DNA from: Cetorhinus maximus
Taxonomy: Eukaryota
DNA length: 64,000 nucleotides
Assembly: GCF_964194155.1 (NCBI RefSeq)
Contig: NC_135917.1
Span: 1,674,001 to 1,738,000 of the forward strand
Direction of reading: 5' to 3'
Below are positions 4,071 through 63,330 of the stretch, one piece after another. The notes beneath the pieces were generated by a model. The model saw only the letters and a list, made by a program, of their open reading frames with translations, was not told where the DNA came from and searched no databases. The stretch's first letter is position 1. Every line of letters starts with the position of its first letter. A program made the translations under genes and the position numbers.

Positions 4071-5478
4071 ATATTCATTACAAGTCTACCGACTCCCACA
4101 GCTACCTCGACTACAGCTCCTCACACCCCGCTTCCTGTAAGGACTCCATCCCATTCTTTCAGTTCCGTCTGATACTTTCAAAAGTGATGATACTTTCAAA
4201 AACAGTTCCTCTGACATGTCTTCCTTCTTCCTTAACCGAGGTTTTCCACCCATTGTGGTCGACAGGGCCCTCAACCGTGTCTGGCCCATCTCCCACACAT
4301 CTGCCCTCACACCTTCCTCTCCCTCCCAGAACCATGATAGGGTCCCCCTTGTCCTCACTTATCACCCCACCAGCCTCCGCGTTCAAAAGATCATCCTCCG
4401 CCATTTCCGCCAACTCCAGCATGATGCCACCACCAAACACATCTTCCCTTCACCTCCCCTGGTGGCATTCCGCAGGGATCGTTCCCTCTGGGACACCCTG
4501 GTCCACTCCTCCATCACCCCCTACACCTCAACCCCCTCCCACGGCACCTTCCCTTGCAACCGCAGAATGTGCAACACCTGCCCCTCTCCTCACCGTCCAA
4601 GGGCCCAAACACTCCTTTCAAGTAAAGCAGCATTTCATTTGCACTTCCCTCAATTTAGTCGACTGCATTCGCTGCTCCCAATGCGGTTTCCTCTACATTG
4701 GAGAGACCAAACGCAAACTGGGTGACCGCTTTGCGGAACACCTTCTGTCTGTCCGCAAGCATGACCCAGACCTCCCTGTCGCTTGCCATTTCAACATACC
4801 ACCCTGCTCTCATGCCCACATGTCTGTCCTTGGCCTGCTGCAATGTTCCAGTGAAGCTCAATGCAAACTGGAGGAACAGCACCTCATCTTCCGACTAGGC
4901 ACTTTACAGCCTTCCGGACTGAATATTGAGTTCAACAATTTTAGATCATGAACTCTCTCCTCCATCCCCACCCCCTTTCCGATCCCCCTTTTTTCCAATA
5001 CTTTATATAGATTTTTCTTTTCCCACCTATTTCCATTATTTTTAAATGTATTTCCATCCATTGTTTTATCTCTACCTTTTAGCCTATTTCGATCCCTTCC
5101 CTCCACCCCACCCCCACTAGGGCTATCTGTACCTTGCTCATCCTGCTTTCTACCCTTAATGTCACCTATTAGCACATTCCTTAGATAATATCACCACCTT
5201 CAACACCTCTTTGCCCTTTTGTCTGTGACATCTTTTGGTTATCTCCACCTATCACTGGCCCTCTATCCAGCTATACCTGTCCCACCTCCCCCCCCCCCCC
5301 CTCCTCTAAACCAGCTTATATTTCACCTCTCTTCTATTTTTCCTTAGTTCTGTCGAAGAGTCATACGGACTCGAAACGTTAACCGTCTTCCTCTCTGCAG
5401 ATGCTGCCAGACCTGCTGAGTTTTTCCAGGTATTTTTATTTTTGTTTTGGATTTTCAGCATCCGCAGTTTTTTGCTTT
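4071..5478 (+). mobile_element. Penelope-like retroelement 3' part (RT C-terminus, GIY-YIG endonuclease, 3' UTR/terminal repeat)
   Basis: Frameshifted ORF pieces HYKSTDSHSYLDYSSSHP, DRVPLVLTYHP and CIRCSQCGFLYIGETKRKLGDRFAEH...GLNIEF (stop 4951). A pyrimidine-rich UTR and hammerhead-bearing terminus follow. Confidence 0.92.
5345..5384 (+). ncRNA. Minimal type I hammerhead ribozyme motif (degenerate) in the Penelope terminus
   Basis: GTT-CTGTCGA-A-GAGTC-atacg-GACTC-GAAAC-GTT-AAC gives a CUGANGA-like box (A6 changed to T), a 5-bp stem II, the GAAA box, a palindromic AACGTT stem III and a GTT/AAC stem I. Confidence 0.65.
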
Positions 5479-5679
5479 CAACTAGAAACAAGTCCAATTG
5501 TGTGGCTTGAAGGATTGTGACATAATGCCACATTTCGGTATAAAAATGTATAATTTTATTTAATTTGGAGGAAAGGGGATCGAAAACAGCAGCCAAAAAA
5601 GGTTGGCAAACATTCTTTTTCTGAAGATGCACTCTTGATTTGGAGGTTTGGAAGGCAGAAAGACGCACGCAGGCCCTGC

Positions 5680-5780
5680 AAACTACAACTCCCAGCAAGC
5701 TTGGTGGGTTATTTCCGGTGTAGGGAAATGCTTCCAGGTGACAGCTTTCGGCGCCTTTTTTGCCTCAGAAAATGGCGTCA
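5680..5780 (+). promoter_or_regulatory. PRIM1 proximal promoter: ZNF143/THAP11-type, ETS, E2F-like and YY1 motifs
   Basis: AACTACAACTCCCAGCAAGC (5681-5700), ATTTCCGG (5711-5718), TTTCGGCGCC (5746-5755) and AAAATGGCG overlapping the start codon. Motif matches only. Confidence 0.65.
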
Positions 5781-5886
5781 AGCGAGAGTCAGTATGATGC
5801 GGCTGAGTTACCAGATTTACTCCCCATTTATTACAGACGTCTCTTCCCATTTCCGCTGTACTTCAGGTGGTTAAACTATGGTGGTG
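5772..5886 (+). CDS. PRIM1: PRIM1 coding exon 1
   Basis: [38 protein letters not shown]; donor GTAAGG at 5887. Confidence 0.93.
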
Positions 5887-8800
5887 GTAAGGAGGAAATA
5901 TATTTTTTCTTTGCAAGTACTTTTTGCTATTTTATTACTGTGCAAAAGGGTTTGTTCCAGGGTTCGGGTAAAGTGGAAGGAACTTGTGTGTTGGCTGCTT
6001 TCTATTCAAAGGTACCTCTGTACCTATTTAAATCGATCTAAAATGCATTTCATTGCGATTTAGTAATTCTCCTCTTTTTGTTAAATATCAAATGTTTAAA
6101 AGTACAAATAGGGGAGGCGATGGCATAGTGGTATTGTCACCAGACTAGTAATCCAGAGACCCGGAGTAATGCTCTGGGGACCTGGTTTTGAATCCCACAA
6201 GGGCGGTATTAAAACAAATTATAAAGTCTGATGATGATCATGAAACCATTGTCGATTGTTGTAAAAACCCATCTGGTTCACTAATGCCCTTTAGGGAAGG
6301 AAATTTGCCATCCTTACCTGTGACTCCAGACCCACAGCAATGTGGTTGACTCTTAAATGCCCTCTTAACGAGGGCAATTCGGAACGGGCAATAAATGTAG
6401 GCCCAGCCAGCGATGCCACATCCAATTAATTTTTTTAAAATCCTGTAGTTAAAAGGAAAGTCAAGTCATACACGAACTCTGCATTTTGATAGCTGTGCTT
6501 TAGGACATGTCAAAACCCATCAACTTAATTTTATATTTTGTTAACAACTGTAAATTGCTATAAATTGTATGAATTTAGCATACCCATTCCCCCTCCCTGT
6601 TTAAACTACCTTTCAGCCATCAAGGCAGATAATTATCCACAGTTGAGATTTCTATGAGGCAGACTTGTACCAATTGCAAAACTATTGAAAGGGAGTTGGC
6701 AAGAATTGTATTTAAATCAGTGTTTCTGCCAGAAAAGTGCCTAAATATTACAGGTCTACCATGTAACTTCTGTGATAATGCCATGAGTTTGCTGCCTCTT
6801 GCACAACATTTATGCTGGTTTTGTGTGCTAAATAGCATCTATTGAAACTTCAGAGCTGATTTGGAGCACCATTTTCACTGTTCAAAATGTAACTTTGTCA
6901 GCAAATCTATGTTGTAGGTTGGCAGCAGGAAAAACTTCTGGATTATTGTTAAAAATCCAACAAGCTCACAGATGCCCTGCATGGAAGGGAACCTACTTTT
7001 CCTACCTGGCTTGGCCTATGTGTGACTCCAGGTTGACTAATGCTCTTTAAAGTGGTTTAAACTACTTAGTTGTTTTAAGGAAACAGCCAAGGTAACAAGG
7101 GATGGACAATGAATGCAGTCATGTAAGCATCTCTCTCACTGTGACACACACACACACATCTGTTGTCACTCGGATTTCTGAGCAGTGTAAATGGTGCATG
7201 TTTGAAAGTGTCCACCAGGGCTGTTTAAAAGCACCTAACCTTACAATTAGAAGTTTTTACCCCTCCCAAACTTGGGTTGGGACAGGATAGAGAACACAGC
7301 TGAATAAACATGGTGAAATACATCTGCCACTGGTGAATGAAAGAGTTTAAAAATGAACTCTATATTGCACAAAAAGCCAATTACAGAACATGAAAGTATA
7401 CCGGTGCCAATATGCTAAATAAACCATTAACTCATTGTAGTATGTTTCTTAGCAAAGTGTGACCTGCTTCTTGGTGGCTCAGTACCACACTGAGGCTCTT
7501 TACTCGCAAGGTTATTAGTTGGATAATTACTCTCTTTGTGTCAACAGTCCCTAAGAACTATTTCCAAAATCGAGAATTTTCCTTCACCTTGAAAGATGAC
7601 ATCTATGTGCGTTATCTGTCCTTTAATAATCAGACTGAATTGGAGAAAGAGATACAGAAAATGGTCCCTTATAAGATTGACATTGGAGCTGTCTACTCAA
7701 ACAAGGTAACTCTTGAGTGCAATACTTCAGATGACTCCAATCTCATAGGTTGGATAGAAACTACCTTCAAGTACAAATTTTAAAACATCATAAAAGTGAT
7801 ATTCCAGGCATCATTGTTGATTTTATATGGTTTTAAGAAAAGACAAGCCCTGGAAATACTCAGCAGATCAGGCAGCATCTGTGGAGAGAGAAACAAGAGT
7901 TAATGTTCCAGGTCTGTGACCTTTCATCAATGTTAATTTCATACTAGCTGATCACTTGTGGTGTTATGTACAGAGTGAAAACATTTTTGAGTGATTTGCA
8001 GGAACCTAATGTCCAGGTTGTGAAAACTCGGGAGCCTGAGTTGCTGTGGGAACATTCACTTTTTACATGCATGTTGTAGTCTGGATCTATGGATAGTGAT
8101 GGTAGAGGCACCAATACTCTTTCCATCACATAGCTGACTGACCAGGAATCTCTCCCGCTCCTACCGCCTGCCATTGGCATGTGTTGGAAGGATTTGCAGG
8201 TTGATAATTAACCCAATTGGCTGCATTATGAACACCCCTTCCTTACTTGAACATCAAATCCTGGGGTAGGGCTTCAACCTGGAACTTTTGGCTCAGGTGT
8301 AAGGACCCACTGTGCCACAAGACCTCAGTAAATCTCAGTAATATATTCTTTAATAGCACCAGTGAACATTGTAACAAAGCACCACCTACAGGAGTGACCA
8401 GTAATGCAGGCACGTATATTAAGTTCCAAATAATACATGGGCACTGTGTACCAAAGTTTAATGTGTGATCGATGAATTGACTGGCATATTATCGAGTAAT
8501 TTAGCTGGTCGCAGCCAGGATAATAGTAGGGATTTGAACTGCAGCAGCATTCATTGTCCCTGGGTAAAGGGAGGAAAAATTGTCCAGTGAAACCTTGATT
8601 GCTGTCGAGCAACCATTGTTAGATGCAATTGTGGGGCTGTCGTGTATCGAGCTCAGTTGTGCTACTGCACAATAAGACGGTAAATTCTCTGAAGATTCAG
8701 TTATTAATAACTGTCAGTTCTCACGAAAGTGTTGAATCTTTCAGGTGAAGAGAGAGGAGAAAATTAGTGATGTGGAGTGAAAGTTTTTGTCAGCAATTCA

Positions 8801-11800
8801 TAACTATTCAGTGTTTCTTCTTTTGTAGCCTAGTCAGCATAACTCTGTGAAATCGGGAACCTTTCATGCTGAGTATAAAGAGCTGGTCTTTGATATTGAT
8901 ATGACAGACTATGATGATGTTCGAACCTGTTGCAGGTATGTTGATGCTTAATTTTTTTTTTTTTGTGCATGGACCCAGCATTTGCAATGCTAAACCTGTG
9001 GTGCTTTTGCAATTAAAACAGAAAATGCTAGCAACAAACATCAGGTCTGGCAGCATCTGTGGGAAGCAAAACAGAGTTAATGTTTTGGATCGATGACCTG
9101 TCATCAGACCTGGGAAAAGTCACTTTTACAATTGGCACTTCTGTTGTTTGGTTTGCAGAAGAGCACTGACTCCCTGCATTAGCCCTGCTAAAAGCAGCTC
9201 CCTTACGCCAACAGTAGAACTGTCGACCAAGGATGCTGAAGTATCTTGGTGTATGGCGAGTGCAGCATAGTTAACGAGTAAAGTGATAAAATTACATATG
9301 TCTCTTTTGTGCCGTACAGTTATGTTCACTAAGGAACTTTAGGGCTCGTGAGCTGTGTAATTTTAGTGGTAGAAAGGGCTACTGTTAAATTTTCACTTAA
9401 CTCATAGTTTCAGCAGAAATTGGAGATAGAAAAATGAGTATAATGAGAATTATTGAAAGATGTGGATGCAGTTTGTGTGTTTCAATAATCTGGAACTCTT
9501 GGAAACTGACTAGGTAGTTATTCTTCACTTATGTTTAGTAAAATGGAACCCAAAACTCCAATTAATAAGAGATTTTGGATTGGATTAGATTTTCCACTGG
9601 TTAACTTGTTTATGGGTCATAGAGTTTTACTGTTTATAATTTTTTAAAAAAACTTTTGTGGGTTGATGTTTGAAGGAGTGGGGAAGGGACTGGCTCATAT
9701 TAGATTGCAATGGTTCACCGTTCCTAATGTCTCCTGTGGATAGGAGACTGTACTGTTCATGTTGACATAGAATGGCTTTGAAATCTTTCAGAAGAATTGT
9801 CAAGTTATTTTGTATACTTCAGCTCTGCAGACATTTGCCACAAGTGCTGGACACTAATGACCATTGCTATCAAGATTCTGGACAGAGCATTGGGAGGTAA
9901 AATTGCATTGTGCTTTTTTGTTCTCCAGTAATTCTGCTTCTTGCCTTTTTTTTTTGCTCAATTCATCTCTTGAAGGTGCTGATTCTTTCTGGGCTACAGT
10001 TCCACAGGGGCCTACAGCTTTTTGATATTTGACGCAAGTGGCTTTGTCCTTGAGTGAGTGTCAGCGAGCTAATAGACATGTTCTGAAGGGGCTCATAGGT
10101 AATGTTTGGAAACACGAACTCTTACCTGTTTTTCTTTCTTTACTGTTCTCCTCTTCCCTCGCCACCTGGAGTGCTGAGGTGAATTGTAACACGCTTACTG
10201 CTGCCCTAGCCGAACTGAGCCAACCTAAGCATGGATTGAGCCTGCAGGTAGTTTAGTCTGTCTGGGTCAGCACGACAACACACTAGGCACCTTAACTTTG
10301 TGGAGATATTTGCTTTGTTTCTAAGCTATAAATGGATGTTGATTTCAAGTACTGGTGTAAATTGAAATGGTACTCAATTTATCAAAGCACATTCGCACTC
10401 CTTTAATAAGCTGCCACAGAAGTGGTTGACCTCTTGATTGGGCTGCTATCTTATCGTTTTACTAAAGTTGAGAGATAAGAACATGATGTTCTATCATTCA
10501 GCCTGGGCTCTCTGAAGTTTGCTGGATTGACTCATCTCTTCCTCCCTATGCTTCCCTGTGTGCTGAGATTGCAAATAATCAGCAGGAATGAGTGGCCTGT
10601 TTCTGTTCAGTACATTCTATAATCAGCAACTTAACGTGGATCACACCCACATCCAATCAATTTGTGGCATAGTAGATTGGATCCAATATACTGTACTGCC
10701 CTTGAAGGAAAATTTAAGGACGAGAGAGGGAGTAAGCGTACCCCTTTTTAAACTACACTGGTATTGTTGTCATAACAGAAATGCAGTGGTCTCTGTATTC
10801 TGAAATTCAATGTCACAGGTGCTCTGAGATAAGTCAAGCACCTGACATAATGCAGGTTTCCTATGTTCACATCACAGAGGACTTTGGGTTTCAGCACCGG
10901 CTCTGGATATACTCTGGGCGAAGAGGGGTCCATTGCTGGGTCTGTGATGAAAATGCACGGAATCTTTCCCAGGCAGCTCGGTCTGCTGTTGCAGAGTACC
11001 TGAGTGTGGTTAAGGTATGTATCTTCTAAGCCATGCGATTAATTGTACTTTTAGAGAAAACATAACATGTAACCATTCTACCATCAGTTTGTAACGCCAA
11101 ATGCAACCGGCTGTTTTACAGGGTGGAACAGATGCAATCAAGAAAGTACATCTGACTAATCCCATTCATCCTTCTATTCAGTGAGTGCATTAGAGTAAGA
11201 AAGTAGCTCTGTCTATGGTTATTTGGAGAATATTTTGTTACCAGAATGTGGTTATAAGATACTAACCTCATTTTGTGGATTAAATGTCAACTGTGCCTTT
11301 ATTGGTAGCATTCTCTCCTCTGACCCATTAGGCCATTTGTTCAAACCCCCCTCCAGAGATTTGAGCATAATCTAGGCTGAATTGTTGGAGGTTCTGTCTT
11401 TGAGATGAGAACATTAAATCTGCCCTCTTGAGTGGATGTAAAAGATCTGATGGTACCATTCAAAAAAAGAGCAAGGGAGTTATTCCCAGTGTCCTGGCCA
11501 ATATTTATCGGTCAAGTAAACATCACAAAAACAGATTATCTGATTGTTACCTCGTTGCTGTTCGTGGGACCTTGCTGTGCACAAATTGGTTTCTGCATTT
11601 CCTTGCATTGTAGCAGTGACTACATTTCAAAAGTACTTCATTGGCTGTGAAGCACCTCTTTGCATGTTGAGGTTGTGAAATGCAAGTCTTTATGAAGACA
11701 TCTGAATGTATCCATATGTAGTTGGATCACTGTCGTGCAAGGACAGGAGCATTGTACCACTTCGAACACAATGTCTTGTCCTTAAAGTATGTGCCTTTTT

Positions 11801-14800
11801 AAGTTTTAAAAAGTATGTCTGGTGATTAACCACTGGATGAGTTCAAAGGTTAATTTATTCAAGGCTGCCGATTTAAAAACCCTACTTTGTGACAAGGGCC
11901 AGGATTTTACATTTGGTATGTGGGGGCGGGCCCGACACACCGTAAAATGACGCGTGATGACATCAGGCATGCATCACAACGTCATCGTGCTGTCTCGCAA
12001 TATTTCGTTCAGCGGGCACGTGCCAGAGTCGACTGAGCACCGCCGATAATTGAAAGGCCTACTAAGGCCATTAACTAGGTAATTAACCTTAACTTTACAC
12101 TGCCCATCCAACCTTACGGTTGGCGGGTAGGCGAAAAGGCCAAACGGCCTTTACGTTTTTTAGGAAACCTCATCCACGAGCGGGATGAAGTTTCCTAAAG
12201 CTTTTACAAATTAAATAAAAAATTTCTTTAAAAAATAAAAACCTGCCCCATCTCATGTGACACATGAGACATGTTTCATTAAATTTTTATTCCATTTATT
12301 TAATATTTTAAAAAACGCTTCAATCTCCATGAGGCAGCTCCATGCCTTGGGGAGATTGAAGCACTCTTTTGCCCACATGTGCAAAAGAGTGCTGGACCCA
12401 ACTCTCTCTCTCTCTCTTCCCCCCCTGCCCTCACAGGTAGTGCTGAGCTACCACTTGCGTATTACGCTTAATTGGCCCGCCCGCGTAAAATGGCAGTGTA
12501 GAGCCGATTGCGGGCGGTTCTGCAACCGAGCCCGCCCGACGTGGGAAAAATTCAGACCAGGGTCAACTACTAGACTAGATATTGTGACTCCAGCCTTTTG
12601 TGTTCTGTGGCATTTTCTGTGCATTGCCTATGCGATGGATGTGTGTGTGTGTGCGTGCATGTGTGTGTGTAAACCTTCTATATTATATGGTATGAGCAAA
12701 TTGCCTGTGGCATTGTTCAGTGAGGTAGAGAGTATACTGTATAATATGAAATATATCAATGCTGGTGATCTAGTGATTGAATACGTGAAATTGCATTTGT
12801 ATGCTATTGTTGGTTGTATTATTGGGTTCATACTCGAATTATGTTTGTATTTTTATCAAAATTGTAACTCAGTTGATTTATGATGGCTAGCCTGTGTACT
12901 AAATTTGATGCCTTGGCATTTTTAAAGCCCAGGTCTAAGCAAATAATTCTTCTGTTTGTGTGATGCAGTGATGATCTAAAGAGTGGAGTAAGAGCAATTA
13001 GTTGATGAGGGTTTATCATGTCAGTCCAATTGTTAACCATTGCTCTTGATCCACCTGTAGGCAAGCTATCACTGTGATAGATAGCTATTTTGAAGACTAT
13101 GCCGTGAATGAACAAGACATCTTTGGCAGTAAAGAAACCTGGCAGAAAGTCCTTGCTTTGGTCCCTGATGATATCCTTTCATTGGAATTAGCAACATTTG
13201 GTGAATCTGTGGGCAACTTTTTTTTAAATTTCTATTTTCCATTGATATTGGAAATTGATTGCTTGGTGTAGTGTCTCTGAATATTGCTGTCCTATCCCTG
13301 TGCCTGTACTTTGATCTAGTCTAGATATGAAGAGTGATTGCCTTTTCAGAATCACAGAATTACAGCACAGGCAACAACTGTTCGGCCGATTATGTGTTCA
13401 CTGGCTCTCCGAATGAGCAATTCACCAAGTGCCATTCTCCCCATAACCCTGCGCATTCTTCCTTTTCAGATAATCCAGTTCCCATTTGAAGGCCTTGATT
13501 GACCGTGCCTCCATCACACTCTCACGCAGCGCATTCCATATCCTAACGCCTCGATTGGACCTGCCTCCACCACACTCTCAGGCAGCGCATTCCAGACCCT
13601 AACGCCTCGATTGAACCTGCCTCCACCACACTCTCACGCAGCGCATTCCAGATCCTAACGCCTCGATTGAACCTGTCTCCACCAGACTCTCAGGCAGCGC
13701 ATTCCAGACCCTAACGCCTCGATTGACCCTGTCTCCCCCACACTCTCAGGCAGTGCATTCCAGATCCTAACGCCTCGATTGAACCTGCCTCCACCACACT
13801 CTCAGGCAGCGCATTCCAGATCCTAACGCCTCGATTGAACCTGCCTCCACCACACTCTCAGGCAGCGCATTCCAGATCCTAACGCCTCGATTGAACCTGC
13901 CTCCACCACACTCTCAGGCAGCGCATTCCAGATCCTAACGCCTCGATTGACCCTGTCTCCCCCACACTCTCAGGCAGCGCATTCCAGATCCTAACGCCTC
14001 GATTGACCCTGCCTCCACACTCTCAGGCAGCACATTCCAGACCCTAACGCCTCGATTGACCCTGCCTCCACCACACTCTCAGGCAGCGCATTCCAGACCC
14101 TAACGCCTCGATTGACCCTGTCTCCCCCACACTCTCAGGCAGCGCATTCCAGACCCTAACGCCTCGATTGACCCTGTCTCCCCCACACTCTCAGGCAGCG
14201 CATTCCAGACCCTAACGCCTCGATTGACCCTGTCTCCCCCACACTCTCAGGCAGCGCATTCCAGACCCTAACGCCTCGATTGACCCTGTCTCCCCCACAC
14301 TCTCAGGCAGCGCATTCCAGACCCTAACGCCTCGATTGACCCTGTCTCCACCACACTCTCAGGCATCGCATTCCAGACCCTAACGCCTCGATTGAACCTG
14401 TCTCCACCACACTGTCAGGCAGCGCATTCCAGATCCTAACGCCTCGATTGACCCTGTCTCCACCACACTCTCAGGCAGCGCATTCCAGATCCTAACCACT
14501 CGCTGTATGAAAAAGTGTGTCCTCGGGTCTCCATTGCTTCATTTGCCAGTTACCTTAAATCTGTGCTGTCTGGTGTGGGGAACACCTCATTGTCACAATA
14601 TGGGGTGCTTGTCTTTGAGGCTGGGGATTAAGGTGTGTTTTGAGTTAGATTTGCTCTTTATGCAAGGCTTGCTTACTGTTGCAAGAGGTGAGGAAGCATT
14701 GTAGTCCACTGCACAAACATTCTTCACCTCAAGCCCAAAAATTCAGATTTTGACACTTGCTAGGTTGAAAGAAGTCTCCTTAAATCTATTCGTGACATTT

Positions 14801-17800
14801 GAAATCCTTTTTATTTTTTGTGTTACTTGTTTTCTTCAAAAAGTAATTGCACTCTTTCAGCAGTACACTGCATTCTCCCCAGCCAATAGAGAATAGGAGT
14901 AAGAGTGAAGGGAAGTGAATTAGTTGTTTTGTTAACCCTGACCTCCATGGAGAAATTCTCAACTTCCAACCAGATGGTTTTGTTTTTATAAATTGTTCAC
15001 CCAAGTCAACTAGTAGGTTATATCCTTGGCTGTATTGTTCCATCTTCTGGAACTTTTGGTTTGTATACGTGGGATCAGTGGTTGTGTTACTGGACTCTAG
15101 AGGGCTGGAACGTGAGTTGAAATCCCACCATGGCAGCAAAATCAGGAATAAAAATTTGGTATCCGTAAGTGAGCATGAAGTTGTTGGAAAAGTCGAACTG
15201 ATTCACTCATGTCCTTCAGGAAAGGAAACTTGCTGTCATTTCCTGGTCTGGCTTATTTTTGACATCAGTCCCAATGTAGCCAACTCAGCAGTTTGATAAG
15301 CTGAATGTTTTTTTAAATTTAATCTTTCATGAGATGTGGGTGTCACTGGCTAGGCCAGTATTTATTGCCCATCCCTAATTCCCCTTGAGAAGGTGGTGGT
15401 GAGCTGCTTCTTGAACCGCTGCAGTCCCCGTGGTGCAGGTATATCCACAGTGCTGTTAGGGAGGGAGTTCCTGGATTTTGACCCAGCGACAGTGAAGGAA
15501 CGGCGATATATTTCCAAGTCAGGATGGCTGCTTGGAGGGGAACTTCCATGTGGTGGTGTTCCCATGTGTCTGCTGCCATAGAACCATAGAAAAGTTACGG
15601 CACAGAAAGCAGCCATTCGGCCCATCATGTCTGCACCGGCCGAAAAAGAAAAAATAGCCACCCATTATAATCCCACCTTCCAGCGCCCGGTCCGTAGCCT
15701 TGCAGGTTACAGCACTTCAGGTGCTTTTAAATGAGTGCTTCTGTCTGCACCACCAAACCAGACAGCGAATACCAAGACACCAGTGCCCTCTGGATGAAGA
15801 AGTTTTTCCTCATGTCCCCTCTAACCCTTCTGCCAATCACCTTAAATCTGTCCCCCTGGTAATTGGCCTCTCTGCTAGGGGAAACAGGGCATCCCTGTCT
15901 ACCCCAATTTGGCCCCTCATAATCTCGTACACCTCAATCAGGTCACTCCTCAGTTCCAAGGTAAACAACCACAGCCTTTCCTCATTGCTAAAATTTTCAA
16001 GCCCTGGCAACATTCTTGTAAATCTCCTCTGTACTCTCTCCAGAGCAATTGTGTCCTTCCTGTTATGTGGCGACTAGAACTGTACACAATTCCAGCTATG
16101 GCCTAACCAGCGTTTAGTACAGTCCTATCATTACATCCCTGCTTTTGTATTCTATACCTCGTCCAATAAAGGAAAGCATTCCATATGCTTTCTTTACCAC
16201 CTTATCCACCTGCCCTGCCACCTTCAGGGACCTGTGGATATGCACACCAAGGTCTCTCCCTTCCTCTACCCCTCCCAATTTCCTCTCATTTATTGTGTAT
16301 TCCCTTGCTTTGTTTGTCCTCCCCAAATGCATAACCTCACTTCTGTGGATTGAATTCCATCTGGTATTTTGCTGCCCACTCAACCAAGCCATTGATATCA
16401 TTCTGGAGACAACAGCTATCCTTTTCACTATCAACTACACAACCAATTTTTGTGTCAGCTGCAAATTTCCTGATCCCATGCCTCCCAAATCGTTAACATA
16501 TACTTGTCCTTCTAGACAGTGGAGGTCTTGGGTTCGAAAGGTGCTGTTGAAGGAGGATTGTTGGTGAGTTGCTGCAGTGCATCTTGTAGATGGAACACAC
16601 TGCTGCCACTGTGCCTCAGTGGTAGAGGGAGTGAATGTTGAAGGTGGTGGATGTGGTGCCAATCAAGCTATGCTTTGTTCTGGATGGTGTCAAGCTTCTT
16701 GGGTGTTGTGGGAGCTGCACTCATCCTGGCAAGTGGAGCGTATTCCATCATACTCCTGTCTTGTGTCTTGTAGATGGTGGACAGGCTTTGGGGAGTCAGG
16801 AGGTGAGTAACTCGCCACAGGATTCCTTGCTCCTGACCTGCTCTTGTAGCCACAGTATTTATAAAGGTGGTCCAGTTCAGTTTCTAGTCGATCGTAATCC
16901 CCAGGATGTTGGTAGTGGGGGATTCAACAATGTTAATACCATTGAATGCCAAGGGAAGATGATTAGATTCTCTCTTGTTGGAGATGGTCATTGCCTGGCA
17001 CTTGTGTGGCATGAATGTTACTTGTTACTTGTCACTTGTCAGCCCAAGCCTGGATATTGTCCGGGTCTTGCTGCATGTGAACACAGACTGCTTGGTATCT
17101 GAGGAGTCACGAATGGTGCTGAACATCGTGCGAATATCCCCACTTCTGGCCTTAAGATGGACTGGCAGTTATGGTCAATAAACACTGGCTTCATTGAATC
17201 TCACATCCAGAGAATGAATTGATTTTTTTTTTTCAAAATTCCGCTTTCTGTAAATTGACCCTTGTTTTATCATTGCTGTTTCAATAACCAAATAAGTATT
17301 TAGAAAGCATGTAAATGCACAGTGTTTTGACTGATGCACCAGATTTTACAGTGTAACCATGCATGATGCAAAAATGCAACAAAGGTTCCTGCTGTAAAAT
17401 GCTGGGACACATTGACCCAGTTAATGTTAAGCGACTTCTTAGGTTAGTATTACATAAGTGCTTTGTTCTTAAAATTGCAAAGGAGCAGAATGTTAAGTTC
17501 CTTACGAGAATTGATCTCGTGATAAGATTTGTTTCTTTCCTTTAAACTTCCATGCTGTGGTTAAAATCTGTTCAAATATTTACATGAGACGATGGAGGTA
17601 TCTTCTTTAACAGCGGTGCACAGTTTCGAGAGGGATTGCAAATAGATTTTGTCAAAGCGCGAAATTCAGCTGAACGCTGGAAATTGATGCAACGCACTGT
17701 AAGTGGTCCCACAATTCAATCTTAATTAGACATAGCATACCCGCGGAGTGATTCGAACGAATGGTGTGATTGAGGAAATGGGGTGGCAACATTAAACTGA

Positions 17801-23800: not shown

Positions 23801-26800
23801 AATTATCTAAAGTTTCCGCCTGGTTGCAGTACCAGCCTTCTTATTGGAAGCATAGCATCTTTGGATGGTGGGTGACTAATGTTCCCTCTAAACTGTGCGA
23901 GTGTGTGGCCATGCAACAATTGGGAACGAACGTGATATGCAGGGAGCAAACAGGCTGCCCATGAGCAACGTTCCCTTCAAGATGTGTGCATGCATGGCTG
24001 CGCATCAATATTAAAGGAATTGCACAGCGCAACAAGCGCACAGCAAGCAGAAGTTAGGGGGAACAATGTTGAGGGCAGCATTGTGCTCAGCTATGATGGC
24101 CTTCACCATGAGACAGTATGCTGGCACAATCTGTCTAAACTTGCATGAGTAGCTGGTTGGGTGTCCAAAGGCACCCGCCATCCGTGTAACCTAATAATGG
24201 CTCTCAGGGGAACGGGAAGAAAGTTGAGGGACAGTGCGTTCTGCTGTAATTTGCAGCAGGATAAACCCTTGACTCTGTGTTGTCTTTCAGTTCTCTTTGC
24301 AAGGAACTTGATAGGAAAACTAAGGAAGAGCAGGAGAATACAAGTGCTGAGAGTGGTGAGGAACCAGAGATGAAGCGTCGCACCAGAGGTAAATGTATAC
24401 GCACAGTCATGAGTATTCTTTCTTTTATTCCTTCATGGGTGTTGCTGATGAGGCCAGTATTTGTTGCCCAAACCCAATTGCCCTTGTTAAGAATCAACCG
24501 TGTTGCTGTGGGTCTGGAGTCATATGGAGACCACATAAGGATAGATTTCCTTCACTAAAGGACATTAGTAAACCAGATGGATTTTTACAATAAATGGTTT
24601 CATGGTCACCACAACTGAGACTAGCTTTCAATTGCAGATATTTTAAAAATTAATTTGCATTTATTAATTTGAATTTAAATTCCACCAGCTGCCATGGTGG
24701 GATTTGAACCCATGTTATTAGCCTGGGCGTTTGGATTACTAGTCCAGTGACAGTATCATTATGATGCTGTCTCTTGTGTGAGAGCAATCCTTTAGTGCTG
24801 CGGGTCCAGTATATCATCCGATCACTTCTCCTAAAACCATTCATTACCCATCTTTCTGCCCTGAAGGTCCTGATTTCTGCTGGGGCCTCACTCCAAGGGC
24901 TGACTAGCACGTGACTATGTCATCTGAAGTACTGTGTACAGTTTTGGTCTCCTTACTTACGGAGGGATATAATTGCATTGGGAGCAGTTCAGCAAAGGTT
25001 CATTCGACTGATTCCTGGGATGAAAGGGTTGTCTTATGAGGAAAGGTTAATCAGGTTCGACTGATAACTGATTGGAGTTTAGAAGAATGAGGGGTGACCT
25101 TATTGAAACGTATAAGATTCTGAAGGGGTTTGATGGGGTAGATGCTGAGAGGATGTCTTCCCCTTGTGGGGGTATCTAGAACTAGGGGCCGCAGTTTCAG
25201 AATAAGGGGTCTCCCGTTTAAGATGGAGATGAGGGGCAATTTCTTTTGAGGGTCATTAGTCTTTGGAATTCTCTTCCTGAGAGAGCAGTGGAGGCTGGGT
25301 CATTGAATATATTCAAGGCTGAGTTAGACAGATTTTCAATCAACAAGGGAGTCCAGGGTTATGGGGGGGGCAGGCAGGAAAGTGGAGTTATGGTTACAAT
25401 CAGATCAGCCATGATCTTATTGAATGACTGAGCAGGCTCGAATGTCTCAATGGCCTACTCCTGCTCCTATTTCTTATTATCTTATGAAACTGAAGAGAAA
25501 TTGTATGCGATGGAATGCAGTGCATATGGGTGAATAAATTTCTCTGCACTCAGATTATAAGAAAACAAGTCTTCTGGGGCCGATCAAGATTTTTGAACAG
25601 TTTATAGAGAAAATGGAGCAGTCACGAAAAGGACAGCTACTGAAACAGAGTGGTGAGTATCATTCGGGATATTTTACAAAAAATGTTATGGCATGAACTT
25701 GCCAAAATGTGGAGCTTTGAAAAAGCCAATGCAGGTCTAGTAAGTTTTTCCTGGAAAGGACCATTGTTTTTACTGGGAATCTTCTGTTTTTTTTAAAATT
25801 TGGAATGTTTCTGTTTTAGAGTTAAACCATAAGTTTGCTTTGAGTTAAGTCTAGAAGCTTTTCTCAAGAGTGAAGATGTGCTTGAGCTGCGTTTTTTTTT
25901 CATATTTGAATTCTTGTCTTGTACTTGAAATTCAGAAGAATATTGCTTGTGAAGTGACGGACTAGAGGTTTATGCCCTTCCTGAATTATGAAAAAAATGA
26001 AATACACTTATAAGATCAACATTTGATAGTGCTCACCAAATTAATTGCTTTTGGGCTGAAGTGGCTATTATGTAGGCAAACGTCAGTCATTCTGGACCTG
26101 CAGTGTCCCCCCAGCAACAGAGATGAATGGCTGGTCAATCTATTTAGATGGTATTGGCTGAGGGAGTAATGTTGACCAAGATACCTGGGACAGCCCCCTG
26201 CTCTTCAGGGTGGCGTTAAAAGTCTTGACAATTCTTGAGGAGGCAGAAGAGAAATTAGAGGGGGTGGGCGGGAGGTGGCTTAATATCATCTCCAAAGAAT
26301 GGATCCCCAACACGTACAACACTGTCAGAATACTGAACATGACATCTATTTTCTCTGTAAACTGTTCAAAAATCTTGATCGGCCCCAGAAGGCTTCTTTT
26401 CTTTAATCTGAGAGCAGAGAAATTTAAAGGAATTTATTCATCCATATGCACTGCATTCTGCGTCACACTCTTTCTCTTCAGTATTCAGTTTCATAAGATA
26501 ATAAGAAATAGGAGCAGGGGTAGGCCGTTCGGTCCTACACACAGTGCAGTTCACTGCTCAAGTACTGCAACTTCACTCCTAAGCCCTGGAGCCAATACAA
26601 GTGCTGATATCTGAGCAAGAAGTCATTTCTCATAAGGTAGCTATGAGAGGGGAAGCAGGGCAGTTCAAGAGGCGAGTGCGAATTGGGAGAATTTTCAGAA
26701 TTTGGGTGGGGAATAGGGCATGACATGGAGGATTCTTTTCAAAAAAAAATACAGCCAGAAATGAGAAAATTGTTGTATCTGCCACTTTCATTTAAAGGGC

Positions 26801-28925: not shown

Positions 28926-29627
28926 TCTGTTTATATTCCCCACCTGTTTCTTTTAATACATATAGAGTGGAAATGATTAGTTCCTGGAGATTTATCTAAT
29001 GTCCCATTATTTTGTGCATTTTTAAAAAAAAACTTGTTGTAAATGAGGAACATTGTTAATTTAATACATTATGTTCCCTTATACCTCAATGTTTTTATGC
29101 TTGTGCATGAAGACTAGCCACTTGGGCAAAGGACTAGAGAACTACTGGCATCTGGACCCATACCCCAGTCAGAATCAGCATCTTCAAGAACTGGGGTGCA
29201 GAATTGGAAAAAAGAAACATTGAGGGTCGACGGTGAATTGTACAAGAGACTGACTGAAAATGTGTACTTTGGAAAACTGCAAGGCCATTTTGCTTGAACA
29301 ATCAGGCAGTCCATTGAACAGATACCTGCAGTGTCTATTGCCAGCTAATGTCAGGCAGCATATCTATTCAACAAGGACCTATTTTTATTCTGCATAAGCT
29401 AGTTTTTGATTACTTATTTTGCATTGGGCTTTTTGGTTGCAATCTAGTTTGGAGGCTCATTAAACTGAAAGGTGGCATTCAGTACATGGTAAAGGAGACT
29501 AAACAAAACTAAAATGCTGCAGATGCTGGAAATCCTGAAACGAGAACAAAATATGTTGCAAAAACTGGGTCAGGCAGCATATGTGGAGAGAAACAGAGCC
29601 AATGTTTCAAGTCGATGATGCTACCTG

Positions 29628-30402
29628 TGTTATGACACAGCAGTTGGTAAAGGCTGAGTTATTTAAAATCCCAGAGGGAAACTTTAAACAATTGTCATAA
29701 CTTATATTTTCAATTGGTATGTTTGAGATGCAGCTCTGAATTCAGAAATGAAATTACTAAGCCTCCAGAAGTTTAATATAAATTAAATAAAATTTAACAA
29801 ATTTAAACACATACACATGTCTACAAATCACTACCATAATAACTTTTAAACAATTCCCCAAATTAAATCACTCCCAGATAATCTCCAAGGCAACAATAAC
29901 CCATAGACTTAGACACCAGGCAAGGCACATTTTATCTTATGAATTCAAAATGAGGTTCCTTTCAATTTGGTCCTTCATAGCCAGTACTAAGGTTTACAGG
30001 CTGCTTCGATATTACATACCTGATTCAGACACAACCTTTTTTCTATATATACCTAGCCTTCCCTTTGAATGTAAATTCTCATTGTATCACCAAGGCCCTT
30101 TGAACTCCACCTCTAACAATAAAGTCTCTTTCATAGTACCAATTTTATTAGTAATATAAACATATTGCTTGGTGTCTCCTAGCTAGGTGCAAGCTTTCAC
30201 CTTCAGTCTTTGAATGGTTTATTCAACAAAATGCAAATGTAACCTATACCTTACTATTTAACATCTCAAAACTATTATACAATCAAAGCATCCAAACTAG
30301 CTGGCTTTGATCTAATCTAATTAATGCGCACACAGCCACAGGCCCTATTAAAAGTCTAATTTAAAATAATTTACAATATTATATACTTTAATATCTTTGA
30401 CA
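29628..30402 (-). repeat. 3' LTR (~775 bp)
   Basis: Colinear, visibly diverged copy of 31945-32712; adjacent to the PPT. Confidence 0.9.
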
Positions 30403-32712: not shown

Positions 32713-32904
32713 GTTTTTCCAGCATTTTTTTGTTCTTGAAACTATTCTAAATATAGTTAAGGTAGGTATGGTCTTCCAGGATTTACATTCAATCATGGGA
32801 CAAGGGAGAGGGGTGTCACAGAACTATTATGTTAGTGCAGGACTTTGAAAAATAATTATTCAGAATGAAATAATTTTACACACTTTAATCAGTTAGCTTA
32901 TATA

Positions 32905-33728
32905 ATATAAAAACAGAAAATGCTGGAAAAACACAGGTCTGACAGCATCTGTGGAGAGAAGAACAGTTAATGTTTTGAGTCCATATGACCTTCAGAGCTT
33001 CAAGGCCCCAAACACTCCTTTCAGGTGAAGGAGCACTTCACTTGCACCCCCTTCAATTTGGTCTACTGCGTTTGCTGCTCCCAATGCAGCCTCCTCTACA
33101 TTGGGGTTACGAAAAGGTAGACTGCTTTGTGGAACCCCTTCAGTCTGGCCACAAGCATGACCCACACCTTCCCATCGCTTGCCATTTTAACACACCATCC
33201 TGCTCTCATGTCCGTCCTTGGCCTGCTGCAATGTTGCAGTGAAGCCCAACGCAAACTGGAGGAACAGCACCTCATCTTCCGATTTGGCACTTTACAGCCT
33301 TCGGACTCAAACATGGAGTTCAACAACTTCAGACCATGAACTCTATCTTCACCCCTTAAATGTATTTTTATTTTTTATCTACTTATTTTTATTCATTTAT
33401 CCCTTTTTCTATCCTTCCCCCCCAAAAAAAAGGGCTGTTACTTGTTCCATGTTGATCTTTCACAGAGTACTGACCCTTGTTCTGCTATTAACACATTGCT
33501 TTCTTACCTTTATGCCACAATCAGCACCTTCTTTAGCCCTTACTACTCCCATTAACACTCTTTTTGTGCATGATGTATTTGTCAATCTCCTTAGCCTCCA
33601 CTGCTCTGAAGAGTCATATGGACTTGAAATGTTAACTTTGTTTCTCTCTCCACAGATGTCAGATCTTCTGAGTTTTTCCATAATTGTGTTTATTTCAGAT
33701 GTGCAGGATCCACAGTATTTTGTGTTAA
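32905..33728 (+). mobile_element. 5'-truncated Penelope-like element with inverted hammerhead-bearing termini
   Basis: 33001-33339 matches the GIY-YIG tail at 4598-4951 (RKLEEQHLIFRFGTLQP). 32905-32998 is the reverse complement of 33603-33700. Confidence 0.88.
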
Positions 33729-34118
33729 TAGATCAGCTGATTGACACAGCCAATACACAGGTTACCAGTGACAGAATTCAAGATCTATGGAATGATCCAT
33801 ATTTATCACACTTTGAAGCCCAGTTTCTGTGGCAGTGTTTAAAACTGAATGAAGAACTGCTTTACTGAGAAAACTATAGAAACTTGAGTCTGAGATTAAT
33901 TGGATATGGCGCAGCAGTAGCCTTCCCAAGTGTGCAATAAATCTTGTGAAAGCAATTTCTGCTTCCAAATACAGTCAAGTGGTCTTTACTGTGACATACC
34001 ACAGACTTTGTTCAGGCATCTCTTAAATGAGAAATTACATGAAATATTGCTGCCTTTAATGTGTGCTTGTTGTGAGCCTCTTAAAAGCTTTAGAAAATGG
34101 GCATTGGACACTGGTCAG

Positions 34119-34722
34119 TGTCAAGCTTCTTGTGTTGTTGGAGCTGCACTCATCCAGACAAGTGGAGAGTATTCCATCACACTCCTGACTTGTAGATGGT
34201 GGACAAGGCACAAGTCAGGAGTGTGATGGAATACTCTCCACTTGCCTACATGATCGCAACTCCAACAACACAAGCTTAACACCATCCAGGACAAAGCAAC
34301 CCACTTGATTGGCACCACATCCACAAACATTCATTCCCTCCATCACCAACACACAGTAGCAGCAGTGTGTACCACCTACAAGATGCACTGCAGGAATTCA
34401 CCAGAGCTCCTTAGACAGCACCTTCCAAACCCACCACCACCATCATCTAGAAGGACAAGGGTAGCAGATAGATGGGAATATCATCACCTGGAAGTTCACC
34501 TCCAAGTCACTCACCATCCTGAGTGGAAAATATATTGTTCCTTCACTTGTCACGGTCAAAATCCTGGAACTCCCTCCCTAACAGCACTGTGGGTGTACCT
34601 ACACCACATGGACTGCAGCAGCTCAAGGCGGCAGCTCGCCACCACCTCACGGGCAACTAGGGATGGGCAATAAATGCTGGCCCAGCCAGTGAAGCCCACA
34701 TCCTGTGAATAAAAAAAAGAGA
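34119..34722 (+). mobile_element. LINE family B 3' fragment with fold-back duplication at its 5' end
   Basis: 3' tail GGGATGGGCAATAAATGCTGGCCCAGCC...poly(A). 34119-34193 is inverted relative to 34210-34281. Confidence 0.87.
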
Positions 34723-35014
34723 AAAAAACTTTTATAGTTCAAGTAGAATTTTGATTTGATCTCTACTAGTACCCAAATTAGCCTCAGACTTGCAGTCTCA
34801 GATTTCCCAGTTGTTTAGTAAAGTTATTCAAGCTCCATAGTGCAAGACACCATCAAATTGATGGAACGAAGGAAATAGCTAACATCTTGCTTGGGTTTTT
34901 AAATGTAGATTGTAGAAAAGGAAGGGAAGGGATTCCACAATATTGAGTTAATGGGAAAGAATGAGCAAGAGCAGATGCTACAGTGAAACTTGGGTTCAAG
35001 CACAGTGAAGCTGC

Positions 35015-38000
35015 AGGAACATATGAATTAAGAGCAGGCCAGTTGGCCCCTCGAGCCTACTCAGCCATTCAATAAGATCATGGCTGATCCTTAACCCCAC
35101 ACTCCTGCCTACCCCTGATAACCAACACCCCCTTGTTAATCACGAAATCTATCTAGCTCTGTCTTAATATTCAAAGAATCTGCTTCCATCGCCTTTTGAG
35201 GAAGAGTTCCAAAGACACTCAATACTCAAAATTTCTCCTCATCTATCTTAAATGAGCAACCCCTTATTTTTAAACAGTGGCCCCTAGTTCTAGATTCTCC
35301 CACAAGAGGGAGACATCCTTTCCACCCTGTCAAGACCCCGCAGGATCTTAAAAGTTTCAATCAAGTCACCTCTTGCTCTAAATTCCAGTGGATACAAGCC
35401 TAACCTGTCCAGCCTTTCCTCATAACACAACCCACCCATTCCTGGTATTAGTCTAGAAACTTTCTCTGAACTGCTAACATATTTAGATCTTTCTTTAAAG
35501 GAGACCAGTACTCTACACGATACTCCAGATGTGGTCTCGCCAATGACCTGTACAACTGAAGCATAACCTCCCTACTTTTGTAATCAATTTTTCCTCACAA
35601 TAAATGATAATATTCTATTAGCTTTCCTAATTAACTGATTTACATGCAGACTAACCATGTGAATCATGCACTAGGACACCCAATTCCCTCAATCTCAGCT
35701 CTGCAATCTCTCACCATTTAGATAATAAGCTTTTTTATTCTTCCTGCCAAAATGAATAATTTCACATTTGCCAGATCTTTGCCCACTCACTTAGCAGCCT
35801 CCTTACATCCTCTTCACAATGTACTTTCCTACCTTTCTTTGTGTTGTCAGCAAATTTAGCAACCATTTCTTCAGTCCCTTCATCCAAGTCATTTATATAA
35901 ATTGCAAGAAATTGAGGTCCTAGCACTGATCCCTGTGGCACACCACTAGTCACATCCTGCCAACCTGAAAAGACCCATTTATGTCAACTCTGCTTCCTGT
36001 TAGCTTGCCAATCTTCTGTCCATACCAATATGTTACCCCCCTATTACCCTCTACAGCATAAGATTTTATTTTCTGCAATAACCTTTGATGTGGCACTTTA
36101 TCAAATGCCTTCTGGAAATCAAGTACAGTACATCCACTGGTTCCCCTTTATCCACAGCACATGTGACTCCTTAAAGAACTCCCAATAAACATGATTTCCC
36201 TTTCACAAAACCATGTTGACTGCCCGATTGCCTTGAATTTTTTAAGTGCCCTGCTATAACATCTTTGCTTCTATTATAACAGATGTTACACTAATTGGCC
36301 TATAGTTTCCTACTTTCTGTCCCTCTCTTTGACTAAAGAGTTATAATTGCTATTTTCCAATCTAATGGAACCTTCCCCAAATCTATGGAATTTTGGAAAA
36401 TTAAAACCAGTGCATCAACTACCTCACTAGCCACTTCTTTCAAGACCTCGGGGTGAAGTCCATCCAGATCTAGGGATTTGTCAGCCCACAGCCCCAACAA
36501 TTTTCTCAATACCACTTCACTGGTGATTGTAATTTTCCATGAGTTCCTGCCTCACATCTATTTCCAGGATGTTACTTGTGTCCTCTATTGTGAAGACCAA
36601 AGTAAAACACCTGTTTAACTTATCCTCCATCTCCCTACTTTCCATTATTATTTTCCCAGACACTCTATAGGACCAACACTCACTTTGTTAAAAACAAAAA
36701 CAGAATTATCTGGAAAAACTCAGCAGGTCTGGCAGCATCGGCGGAGAAGAAAAGAGTTGACGTTTCGAGTTCTCATGACCCTTCAGCACTCACTTTGTTA
36801 AGTCTTATTTAAATATTTATTGAAACTCTAACTATCTGTCTTTATATTAATAGCTAGCTTTCTTTCATATTTTAATTTTTCCCTCCTCATGAATCTTTGT
36901 CATTCTTTGCTACTCTCACATTTTTTCCAATCTTCTGACCAGCCATGTGTCTTTGTGTAATTATTTGCTATTTCTTTAAGTTTGATACGGTCTTTAACTT
37001 TTTTGGTTAACCACAGATGGTGGGCCCCTTGGAATTTCTCATTGGAATATATATTCTGTGTATTCTGAAATATCCCTTTAAGTGCCTGCCACTGAACTTC
37101 TGTTGACATATCCCTTAACCTCATTTGCCAGTTCACTTTTGGCTAGCTCTGCTTTCATGTCTTCATAATTGCCCTTATTTAAGTTTAAAATACTAGTCAT
37201 GGACACACTCATTTCTCCCTCAAAATGAATGCAAAATTCAATCATATTATGATCACTGCTACCTAGGGGTGCCTTCACTAGGGGGTTAACAATTAATCCT
37301 ATCTCTTTGCTCAATACCAGGTCTAGTATAGTCTGCTCTCTGGTTGGCTCCAGAATGTGCTGTTCTAAGAAACTATCCCAAAAACATTCTATGAACTCCT
37401 CATCTACACTACCTTTGCCCATCTGATTTTTTCAGCCTATGTAGCTTAAAATCCCCCATGATTATAGTTGTAGGATTCTGACAAGCTCCCATTATCTCTT
37501 TTATACTCTGTCCTACTGTGTAGTTACAATTAGGGGGGCCTGTACACCACTCCCAGAAGTGACTTCTTGCCTTTATCATTCCTCATCTCAGCCTAAACTA
37601 CTTCTACATCCTGGTTTCCTGAACTTAAGTCATCCTTCTCTAATATGCAAGTACCATCATTAATTAACAAAGCCACGCCTCCACTTTTTCCCCAACTCCC
37701 TGTACTTCCTAAATGTCACATACCCTTCAATAGTCAGGTCCCAATCAAAGCCATTAGAGAGACATGGCTACAGGATGACAATAAGATCATACTTATTTCT
37801 ATTCGCACCATCAGTTCATTTGTTTCATTTCAAATGCTACATGCACTTGGGATGCAGAATTTTTATTTTTGTAGCATCTAGTCTTATCTGCTGATTTACT
37901 CTTAGATTTGTACTCTGCCCCTTCCTGTCACAGTCTGTTTATCCAGGGGTCATAGATTTAAGGTAAGAGGTAGAAGGCTAAGAGGGGAGTTGAGGAGAAA

Positions 38001-43200: not shown

Positions 43201-43218
43201 ATTTGACGAACTGGAGCA
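43180..43218 (+). other. NACA: NACA non-coding exon 1 (5'TOP)
   Basis: CTCTTTTCCCAGCCATCTTGG resembles the human NACA 5' end as recalled; donor GTAAGT at 43219. The start position is inferred. Confidence 0.78.

Positions 43219-45013: not shown

Positions 45014-63330
<18,317 letters not shown>

What the first reader, a model, noticed from the sequence alone, without database searches (positions are those of the whole stretch)
5345..36790. Dispersed family of short Penelope termini carrying minimal hammerhead ribozyme motifs
Seen: related ~100-140 bp units at 5345 (+), 7838 (-), 9015 (-), 29505 (-), 32905 (-), 33600 (+) and 36692 (-), plus a core-less inverted pair at ~44395-44530. Together they give a consensus CTGANGA-stem II-GAAAC-GT(T/C)-AAC. 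Stem II varies but stays paired (GAGTC/GACTC, AGGTC/GACCT). Established: Penelope-like elements carry minimal type I hammerheads with a palindromic stem III, thought to cleave as dimers. Inference: most copies lack any ORF and behave like ribozyme-bearing non-autonomous elements. No copy here has a fully canonical core, and the PRIM1 intronic copies are antisense to the gene.
Basis: partly seen in the sequence, partly recalled or inferred. Interest (0 to 1): 0.7.

Follow-up and report, generated by a model that had tools for sequence, protein, structure and literature searches.

The report
Penelope stubs with altered hammerhead core
These repeats are the short end-pieces of a very abundant Penelope-type jumping gene that carries a known small self-cutting RNA motif; most pieces begin at or inside the motif, which likely marks where the element's RNA starts, and the youngest subfamilies replaced a normally fixed core base while still spreading, which would weaken cutting.

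Summary
All seven units and the core-less inverted pair are real. They are right-hand ends of one Neptune-type Penelope-like retrotransposon (3.3 kb unit, RT plus GIY-YIG) with the published minimal type I hammerhead; about 375,000 units genome-wide by extrapolation (137 in 1.46 Mb). They are not a separate non-autonomous family: 5345 ends a 1.4 kb insertion with target-site duplication, 32905 and 33600 are the two arms of one inverted insertion, and short and long copies mix on the tree. Two additions. (1) 5' ends pile up at the motif's first bases (38 of 131 in 15 nt; 4 in the next 55 nt), about 30 nt after a TATA-like box, not at the cut site: likely run-off from the transcript start. (2) The non-canonical cores at 5345 and 36692 are subfamily states: core A6 became U, then C, in the youngest lineage (over 35,000 exact matches), while other core bases stayed and stem II gained a compensatory pair. 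Cleavage is untested. Only two copies lie in PRIM1 introns. The scan reported both additions before, on other DNA of this and other genomes.

The parts
4072..5481 (+). One 5'-truncated Penelope-like insertion: end of RT/linker, GIY-YIG coding part (broken frame), 3' UTR, hammerhead, tail; 10-bp target-site duplication at 4062-4071 and 5482-5491
   Evidence: Body 89-90% identical to other genomic copies; GIY-YIG E 0.054, below cut-off; duplication found and read
5317..5323 (+). TATA-like motif 33 nt upstream of core C3 (predicted promoter part)
   Evidence: Same motif starts 32-35 nt upstream of C3 in 41 of 57 long copies; function inferred
5346..5384 (+). Minimal type I hammerhead, U6 subfamily (plus private U7C and helix I mismatch); predicted cut after 5380
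   Evidence: 29 of 29 nearest genomic relatives carry U6
7838..7929 (-). Old short copy, stem II AGGTC/GACCT, decayed core; in a PRIM1 intron, antisense
9005..9108 (-). Old short copy, first core box intact, G12A and broken stem II; in a PRIM1 intron, antisense
29505..29623 (-). Old short copy with tail, 5' half of the core missing; downstream of the PRIM1 coding exons found
   Evidence: RNA-guessed contigs of three runs cover it, strand unknown
32903..33722 (.). One head-to-head inverted insertion: tail-less unit 32903-32998 (-), GIY-YIG coding body and 3' UTR about 33000-33600 (+), unit with tail 33603-33722 (+); middle-aged CTGAAGA-type subfamily, both cores damaged by deletions
   Evidence: (D10)
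36690..36788 (-). Young short copy of the C6 subfamily that begins at the core, flanked by a 15-bp target-site duplication
   Evidence: groups with C6 copies on the tree
44386..44518 (.). Core-less head-to-head inverted pair of end-pieces, inside the first intron of the NACA-like gene
   Evidence: GT..AG joint 43218 to 45012 in one run; gene name from recalled motifs
5774..25652 (+). Context: PRIM1 coding exons found (a short last exon probably follows near 25940)
   Evidence: PF01896 matches, PDB primase small subunit E 3e-22

Best explanation
The units are end-pieces of insertions of one long-lived Neptune-type Penelope-like retrotransposon lineage that carries a minimal hammerhead motif, and the short ones likely arise when the element's reverse transcriptase starts about 70 or 105 nt downstream of the motif and runs off the start of the element's own transcript. 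Shown: 3.3 kb elements with a hammerhead at each end; two 3' end classes about 35 nt apart; target-site duplications; head-to-head inversions; a cliff of 5' ends at the motif's first bases about 30 nt after a TATA-like box; no excess of ends at the cut site; a succession of subfamilies in which core A6 changed to U and then C while the other core bases stayed and the stems stayed paired. Inferred: the cliff is the transcription start; long copies come from the same priming sites in the downstream repeat; the motif folds as a dimer through ACGU; the U6 and C6 forms are slowed cutters whose fold is still selected; the window copies themselves are inert.
For: Six of 7 fetched long elements have two hammerheads 3282-3314 nt apart, 5 with U6 at both ends and 1 with A6 at both; RT E 3e-4 to 1.5e-3 and GIY-YIG E 0.05, all below Pfam cut-offs; C-x4-C-xx-C linker in translations. 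5' ends: 38 of 131 at -40..-26, 4 at -100..-46 (p 2e-21 for a window chosen after seeing the data); the same cliff in 14 of 30 well-preserved A6 copies. 3' ends: 82 of 185 at +60..+79 and 74 at +95..+114, matching the two internal RT start sites and tail of PMC11167929. Target-site duplications 19 of 119 against 0.68 in shuffles. Position 6: same 30-mer with A 2209, U 4738, C or G 332 matches; random sample A6 in 32 of 34 older and 3 of 30 younger copies; tree without the core columns puts U6 and C6 copies in one 100/99 clade with C6 nested; median divergence 2.3% (C6 group), 3.7% (U6 group), 12.1% (pooled older). Stem II pair 10.4-11.4: C-G 9452 matches against C-A 273 and U-G 419. A6C lowers but does not abolish cleavage in other hammerheads (PMC7151607, PMC3088659).
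Against: No cleavage, start-site or strand data were obtained; the runs held are contigs. No extra G at the junction as a cap trace (G at C3-5 in 6 of 50 short copies). Starts spread over about 10 nt, and 52 of 131 start inside or after the core, so ordinary truncation also contributes. Older upstream sequence is pyrimidine-rich and may fail to align, which would inflate the cliff. The hammerhead fold is not the minimum-energy structure as monomer or dimer. The compensatory pair is one event in one master lineage. No intact ORF among the 7 long elements. No measured data on A6U were found.
Confidence: 0.65

Rival explanations
1. The U6 and C6 motifs no longer cut; the element transposes without cleavage and the motif is kept for another role (RNA fold bound by the protein, or promoter sequence: the second core box lies at +28 to +34 from the predicted start and shares ACGT with the Penelope downstream promoter element).
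For: Hammerhead mutants did not change insertion in vitro, and no reads ended at the cut site, in PMC11167929; Naiad and most Chlamys elements spread without canonical hammerheads (PMC8557442); no excess of 5' ends at the cut site (13 in 10 nt against 30 in 35 nt, p 0.20); RGACGTGY element in PMC2377424.
Against: Between the U6 and latest C6 states 8 of 24 non-core motif positions changed and 0 of the 14 other core positions (read rows; hand-computed p about 0.015), which a cutter explains most simply; A6C hammerheads keep low activity; earlier scan notes (unchecked here) report rare copies starting at the cut site.
Confidence: 0.25
2. The short units are a SINE-like non-autonomous family that copies itself from short masters.
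For: 95 of 131 sampled units are short, with a shared 5' boundary and target-site duplications; edge-starting copies are commoner in older groups (25 of 42 against 5 of 28, p 0.0006).
Against: Short and long labels are not clustered (15 changes, shuffles 15.4; the tree is poorly resolved, 2 starred branches of 45); short copies lack the upstream TATA-like box; the old-young difference is not significant in two equally diverged samples (14 of 30 against 5 of 20, p 0.15); no tandem arrays of short units as in retrozymes were noticed.
Confidence: 0.1
3. The 5' cliff reflects the 3' splice-site-like AG at helix I, or polymerase arrest and fold-back at the motif edge, not a transcription start.
For: A pyrimidine tract plus AG precedes the core in long copies; in D. 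virilis Penelope an intron ends at helix I (PMC4209133); many inversions are centred here.
Against: Many short copies keep the AG (A in 27 and G in 31 of 50); target-site duplications abut the motif with no shared upstream exon; TATA-like spacing fits a start.
Confidence: 0.15

Closest known systems
Minimal hammerheads (min-HHR) in pLTRs of metazoan Penelope-like elements (Cervera and de la Pena 2014, PMC4209133; parts 1-2 of 4 read; 2 supplementary files searched, file 1 not searchable)
   Same: Type I, 4-5 bp helix I, extra base between 9 and 10.1, G10.1-C11.1, palindromic 15.2-16.2 with no loop III, mostly single motifs from truncated elements, some opposite-strand pairs
   Different: Youngest subfamilies have U or C at position 6; the parts read name only a C3-G8 to U3-A8 core variant and no shark
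PAc Poseidon element of Anolis (Frangieh et al. 2024, PMC11167929; parts 1-2 of 4 read)
   Same: Two internal reverse-transcription start sites downstream of the hammerhead that define the tail; partial tandem structure
   Different: Different clade; its ORF starts inside stem II, here the likely start is about 170 nt past the motif; it has a canonical core
Neptune and Nematis clades of endonuclease-bearing PLEs (Craig et al. 2021, PMC8557442; passages read)
   Same: RT then Cys-rich linker then C-terminal GIY-YIG; 5' truncation, inverted copies, optional 30-40 bp tail
   Different: No reference phylogeny was run, so Neptune against Nematis is not resolved by test
A6C hammerhead of phage Bcep176 (PMC3088659 section 8 and passages; PMC7151607 parts 1-2 of 4)
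   Same: C at core position 6 with the rest of the core intact
   Different: A single phage motif with a full helix III; here a dimer-type minimal motif in thousands of recent copies, reached through U6
Animal non-LTR retrozymes (bioRxiv 10.64898/2026.07.22.740005; part 1 of 5 and passages)
   Same: Type I hammerhead, derived from PLE pLTRs, no protein
   Different: Retrozymes are tandem arrays of hammerhead-bearing units; these are dispersed single or inverted end-pieces

Membership tests
Endonuclease-bearing Penelope-like element | RT followed by C-terminal GIY-YIG endonuclease | tested here: met
   PF00078 and PF01541 weak matches in this order, below cut-offs; frames broken in all 7 long copies
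Endonuclease-bearing Penelope-like element | Partial tandem forming pseudo-LTRs | tested here: met
   6 of 7 long elements have direct terminal repeats of about 290-1230 bp with a hammerhead each
Endonuclease-bearing Penelope-like element | 5' truncation, inverted copies, optional 30-40 bp tail | tested here: met
   45 of 131 inverted; 3' ends bimodal about 35 nt apart
Neptune clade | CX2-5CxxC linker between RT and endonuclease | tested here: met
   C-x4-C-xx-C in window and genomic translations; definition from PMC8557442, shared with Nematis
Neptune clade | RT phylogeny with reference elements | not tested
   No reference sequences were fetched
Minimal type I hammerhead | CUGANGA and GAAA boxes with A15.1-U16.1 and H17 | tested here: inconclusive
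   Met in older subfamilies (A6 in 32 of 34; 15 of 68 parsed copies fully canonical) and not met at position 6 in the youngest (3 of 30); met in no window copy
Minimal type I hammerhead | Helices I and II supported by covariation | tested here: met
   Stem II pair 1 G-C or A-U, pair 2 A-U, G-U or G-C, pair 4 U-A or C-G; 70 of 70 stem II cells paired in the C6 group; genome counts
Minimal type I hammerhead | Palindromic helix III allowing dimers | tested here: met
   ACGT in young copies, CpG-decayed in old ones; the dimer fold is not the minimum-energy fold
Minimal type I hammerhead | Self-cleavage after position 17 | not testable with these tools
   No raw reads held; no excess of genomic ends at the site
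Non-autonomous family (SINE or retrozyme) | Short copies form their own lineage or tandem arrays | tested here: not met
   (no clustering, weak tree); dispersed single or inverted copies

The most novel reading that the evidence does not exclude
A vertebrate retrotransposon lineage switched off its hammerhead's catalysis (A6 to U to C) at the height of its spread yet kept the fold under selection, so the motif serves as the structured, capped front end of the transcript (protein-binding or promoter element) and self-cleavage is dispensable for Penelope transposition in vivo; the short stubs are a genomic record of the transcript start.
Probability: 0.3. Interest if true: 0.7.

Novelty: new variant of a known kind. 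Interest (0 to 1): 0.5.

Why it matters
Why Penelope-like elements carry hammerheads is stated as unclear in PMC8557442, and one in vitro study found cleavage unnecessary for insertion. This genome holds a natural series of closely related masters (A6, U6, C6), each with thousands of copies, which lets one measure cleavage against transposition success within one lineage. The stub ends give a testable prediction for the transcript start and for internal priming at both repeats. The base observation, minimal hammerheads on truncated Penelope copies, has been known since 2014.

Tried and rejected
Rfam search found no hammerhead; expected for decayed minimal motifs, not evidence against. Single-strand folding of 8 motifs gave no significant z-score (best -1.82, for a non-hammerhead fold) and monomer and dimer hammerhead folds were above the minimum energy: uninformative. 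A first 5'-end estimate was confounded by inverted partners and was replaced; 6 of 137 hits were dropped there (stretch edge or no alignment). Cut-site pile-up: not found. Cap-derived G: not found. Link between core state and copy length: significant across ages, not in equally diverged samples; not claimed. Intron orientation bias: 2 copies only; not testable here. RNA-guessed contigs hold the unit but cannot show ends, strand or level. Post-insertion decay as the source of U6 was rejected (U 4738 against C or G 332). Two rows of the tree are misplaced because their upstream part is not their own body (L183_4766, L221_649), and two U6-group rows are misparsed. Literature: 10 searches gave no paper, by listing and abstract start, on position-6 variants in Penelope hammerheads or on shark Penelope hammerheads; Lunse et al. 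(RNA Biol 14:1499, seen only as a reference in PMC6765202) could not be read and, with Cervera supplement file 1, may already show such variants.
Full report
Observation. The seven units and the inverted pair are present as described. A profile built from natural copies finds these nine pieces in the window and nothing in reversed control sequence. No unit has both core boxes intact: the strict pattern matches twice elsewhere, at chance level, and Rfam finds no hammerhead. The window lies on contig C40 of a 3.99 Gb genome; that it is a cartilaginous fish is my inference from recalled repeat types and comes from no call.

What the units belong to. The unit at 5345 ends a 1.4 kb insertion (4072-5481) bounded by a 10-bp target-site duplication and containing GIY-YIG coding sequence. 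The units at 32905 (-) and 33600 (+) flank about 600 bp of the same body in head-to-head arrangement and are one insertion. The unit at 36692 is a complete insertion of about 95 bp with a 15-bp duplication. Walking upstream in the genome gave 7 long elements; 6 have two hammerheads 3282-3314 nt apart in direct terminal repeats, and all have broken frames. They encode RT and GIY-YIG (weak Pfam matches below cut-off) with a C-x4-C-xx-C linker, the mark of the Neptune and Nematis clades in PMC8557442 (passages read).

Abundance and shapes. In 146 evenly spaced 10 kb stretches of large contigs there are 137 units and none in the reversed control, about 375,000 if extrapolated. Of 131 with a measurable 5' end (6 dropped), 95 start within 45 nt upstream of the predicted cut site or later, 30 extend more than 200 nt, and 6 lie between; 45 have an inverted partner. 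3' ends fall in two classes about 35 nt apart (82 and 74 of 185). Target-site duplications were found in 19 of 119 non-inverted copies against 0.68 in shuffles. These are the known signatures of Penelope-like insertions (PMC8557442 and PMC3846280, passages; PMC11167929, parts 1-2).

Where short copies begin. 38 of 131 start at -40 to -26, the first bases of the hammerhead, and only 4 in the 55 nt from -100 to -46. The cliff is also seen in 14 of 30 well-preserved A6 copies picked by an exact pattern. There is no excess at the cut site (13 in 10 nt against 30 in 35 nt, p 0.20). A TATA-like motif starts 32-35 nt upstream of C3 in 41 of 57 long copies, a check prompted by earlier scan notes; the flanking YYAGTT resembles an initiator (consensus recalled). 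Penelope of D. virilis has an internal promoter (PMC2377424, passages) and the Anolis element starts reverse transcription at two internal sites downstream of its hammerhead (PMC11167929). I infer that priming in the upstream repeat runs off the transcript start and yields the stubs, and priming in the downstream repeat yields long truncated copies. Against: no cap-derived G (6 of 50), spread of about 10 nt, 52 of 131 starts inside or after the core, possible alignment loss in old copies. Short and long copies are not clustered on a tree (15 changes, shuffles 15.4; weakly resolved), so a separate non-autonomous family is not supported.

The core. The same 30-mer occurs 2209 times with A at position 6, 4738 times with U and 332 times with C or G. 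A looser pattern with the core left open has 28,445 matches; in the first 100 listed (start of contig C1, hand count) position 6 is U 75, C 17, A 6, G 2 while C3, U4, G5, G8 and A9 are kept in 98-100. A middle-aged subfamily has A6 in 93 of the first 100 of 2718 matches. The subfamily with stem II GGGCC/GGCTC has 9452 matches, C6 in 99 of the first 100 and A6 in none; half-changed stems are rare (273 and 419). In the random sample, with groups defined by bases downstream of the cut site, A6 is in 32 of 34 older and 3 of 30 younger parsed copies (68 parsed of 137). Trees without the core give a ladder from old A6 groups to U6 to C6 (midpoint root, direction supported by divergence of 12.1%, 3.7% and 2.3%). 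Five of six complete elements have U6 at both ends. Window copy 5345 belongs to the U6 group and 36692 to the C6 group, so their odd cores are inherited; the other copies are decayed members of older A6 groups.

Meaning. A6C strongly slows other hammerheads in Mg2+ but leaves activity, more so in Mn2+ (PMC7151607 parts 1-2; PMC3088659 section 8). After A6 was lost, 8 of 24 non-core motif positions changed, all stem changes keeping pairs, and none of the other 14 core positions did (rows). I read this as a slowed cutter still under selection (best reading), with a non-catalytic or promoter role as the main rival. Nothing here tests cleavage; the RNA runs held are contigs.

Gene context. PRIM1 coding exons run from 5774 to at least 25652. 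Only 7838 and 9015 are in its introns, both antisense; two copies show no bias. The core-less pair lies in the first intron of the NACA-like gene (joint in one run).

Comparison and novelty. The motif is the min-HHR of PMC4209133. The position-6 series and the start-site cliff were not found in 10 literature searches (listed under Tried and rejected), but Lunse et al. and one supplement could not be read. The scan's own earlier notes report both, on other DNA of this genome and in other genomes; my counts and trees on position 6 and on the cliff were made or sent before those notes were read, and the notes are not independent support. Verdict: new variant of a known kind, interest 0.5.

Noticed in passing
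window 1-3900: Decayed LTR-retrotransposon-like coding sequence (RT, RNase H and integrase-like stretches by eye, many stops) directly upstream of the Penelope insertion; one frame gave no Pfam match
   Followed up: no
window 5350-5774: The U6 insertion ends about 290 bp upstream of the PRIM1 start codon in the same orientation, so its predicted promoter and a GT donor-like site (subfamily-specific) could feed the gene
   Followed up: no
L211 1597-2142 against L210, L212-L215: An ATG about 20 nt past the cut site is in frame with the main ORF; the one A6 element reads through, while the U6 elements have a stop at one shared codon before the next ATG
   Followed up: partly
core positions 6-8: The canonical CUGAUGA core contains an AUG that opens a 9-codon upstream frame; U6 and C6 remove it, a possible selective reason for the change
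   Followed up: no
L065 and L168: Two C6 copies of different length on different contigs are almost identical (branch 0.003), pointing to very recent activity
   Followed up: partly
window 54029-57274: 1081-codon Pro/Ala-rich open frame with 21- and 30-nt tandem repeats inside the NACA-like gene, probably the large muscle-specific exon (recalled)
   Followed up: no
window 13490-14500: 56-bp tandem array of about 18 copies, related to a dispersed repeat at 20583
   Followed up: no
window 27175-29960: Unique sequence downstream of PRIM1 covered by long contigs in three RNA-guessed runs, including the 29505 copy; possibly a long 3' UTR or a non-coding transcript
   Followed up: no
window 47780-48360: Five related 38-47 nt units spaced 128-138 nt apart in a NACA-like intron (D15 and D17), possibly small intronic RNA copies; no Rfam match
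   Followed up: no
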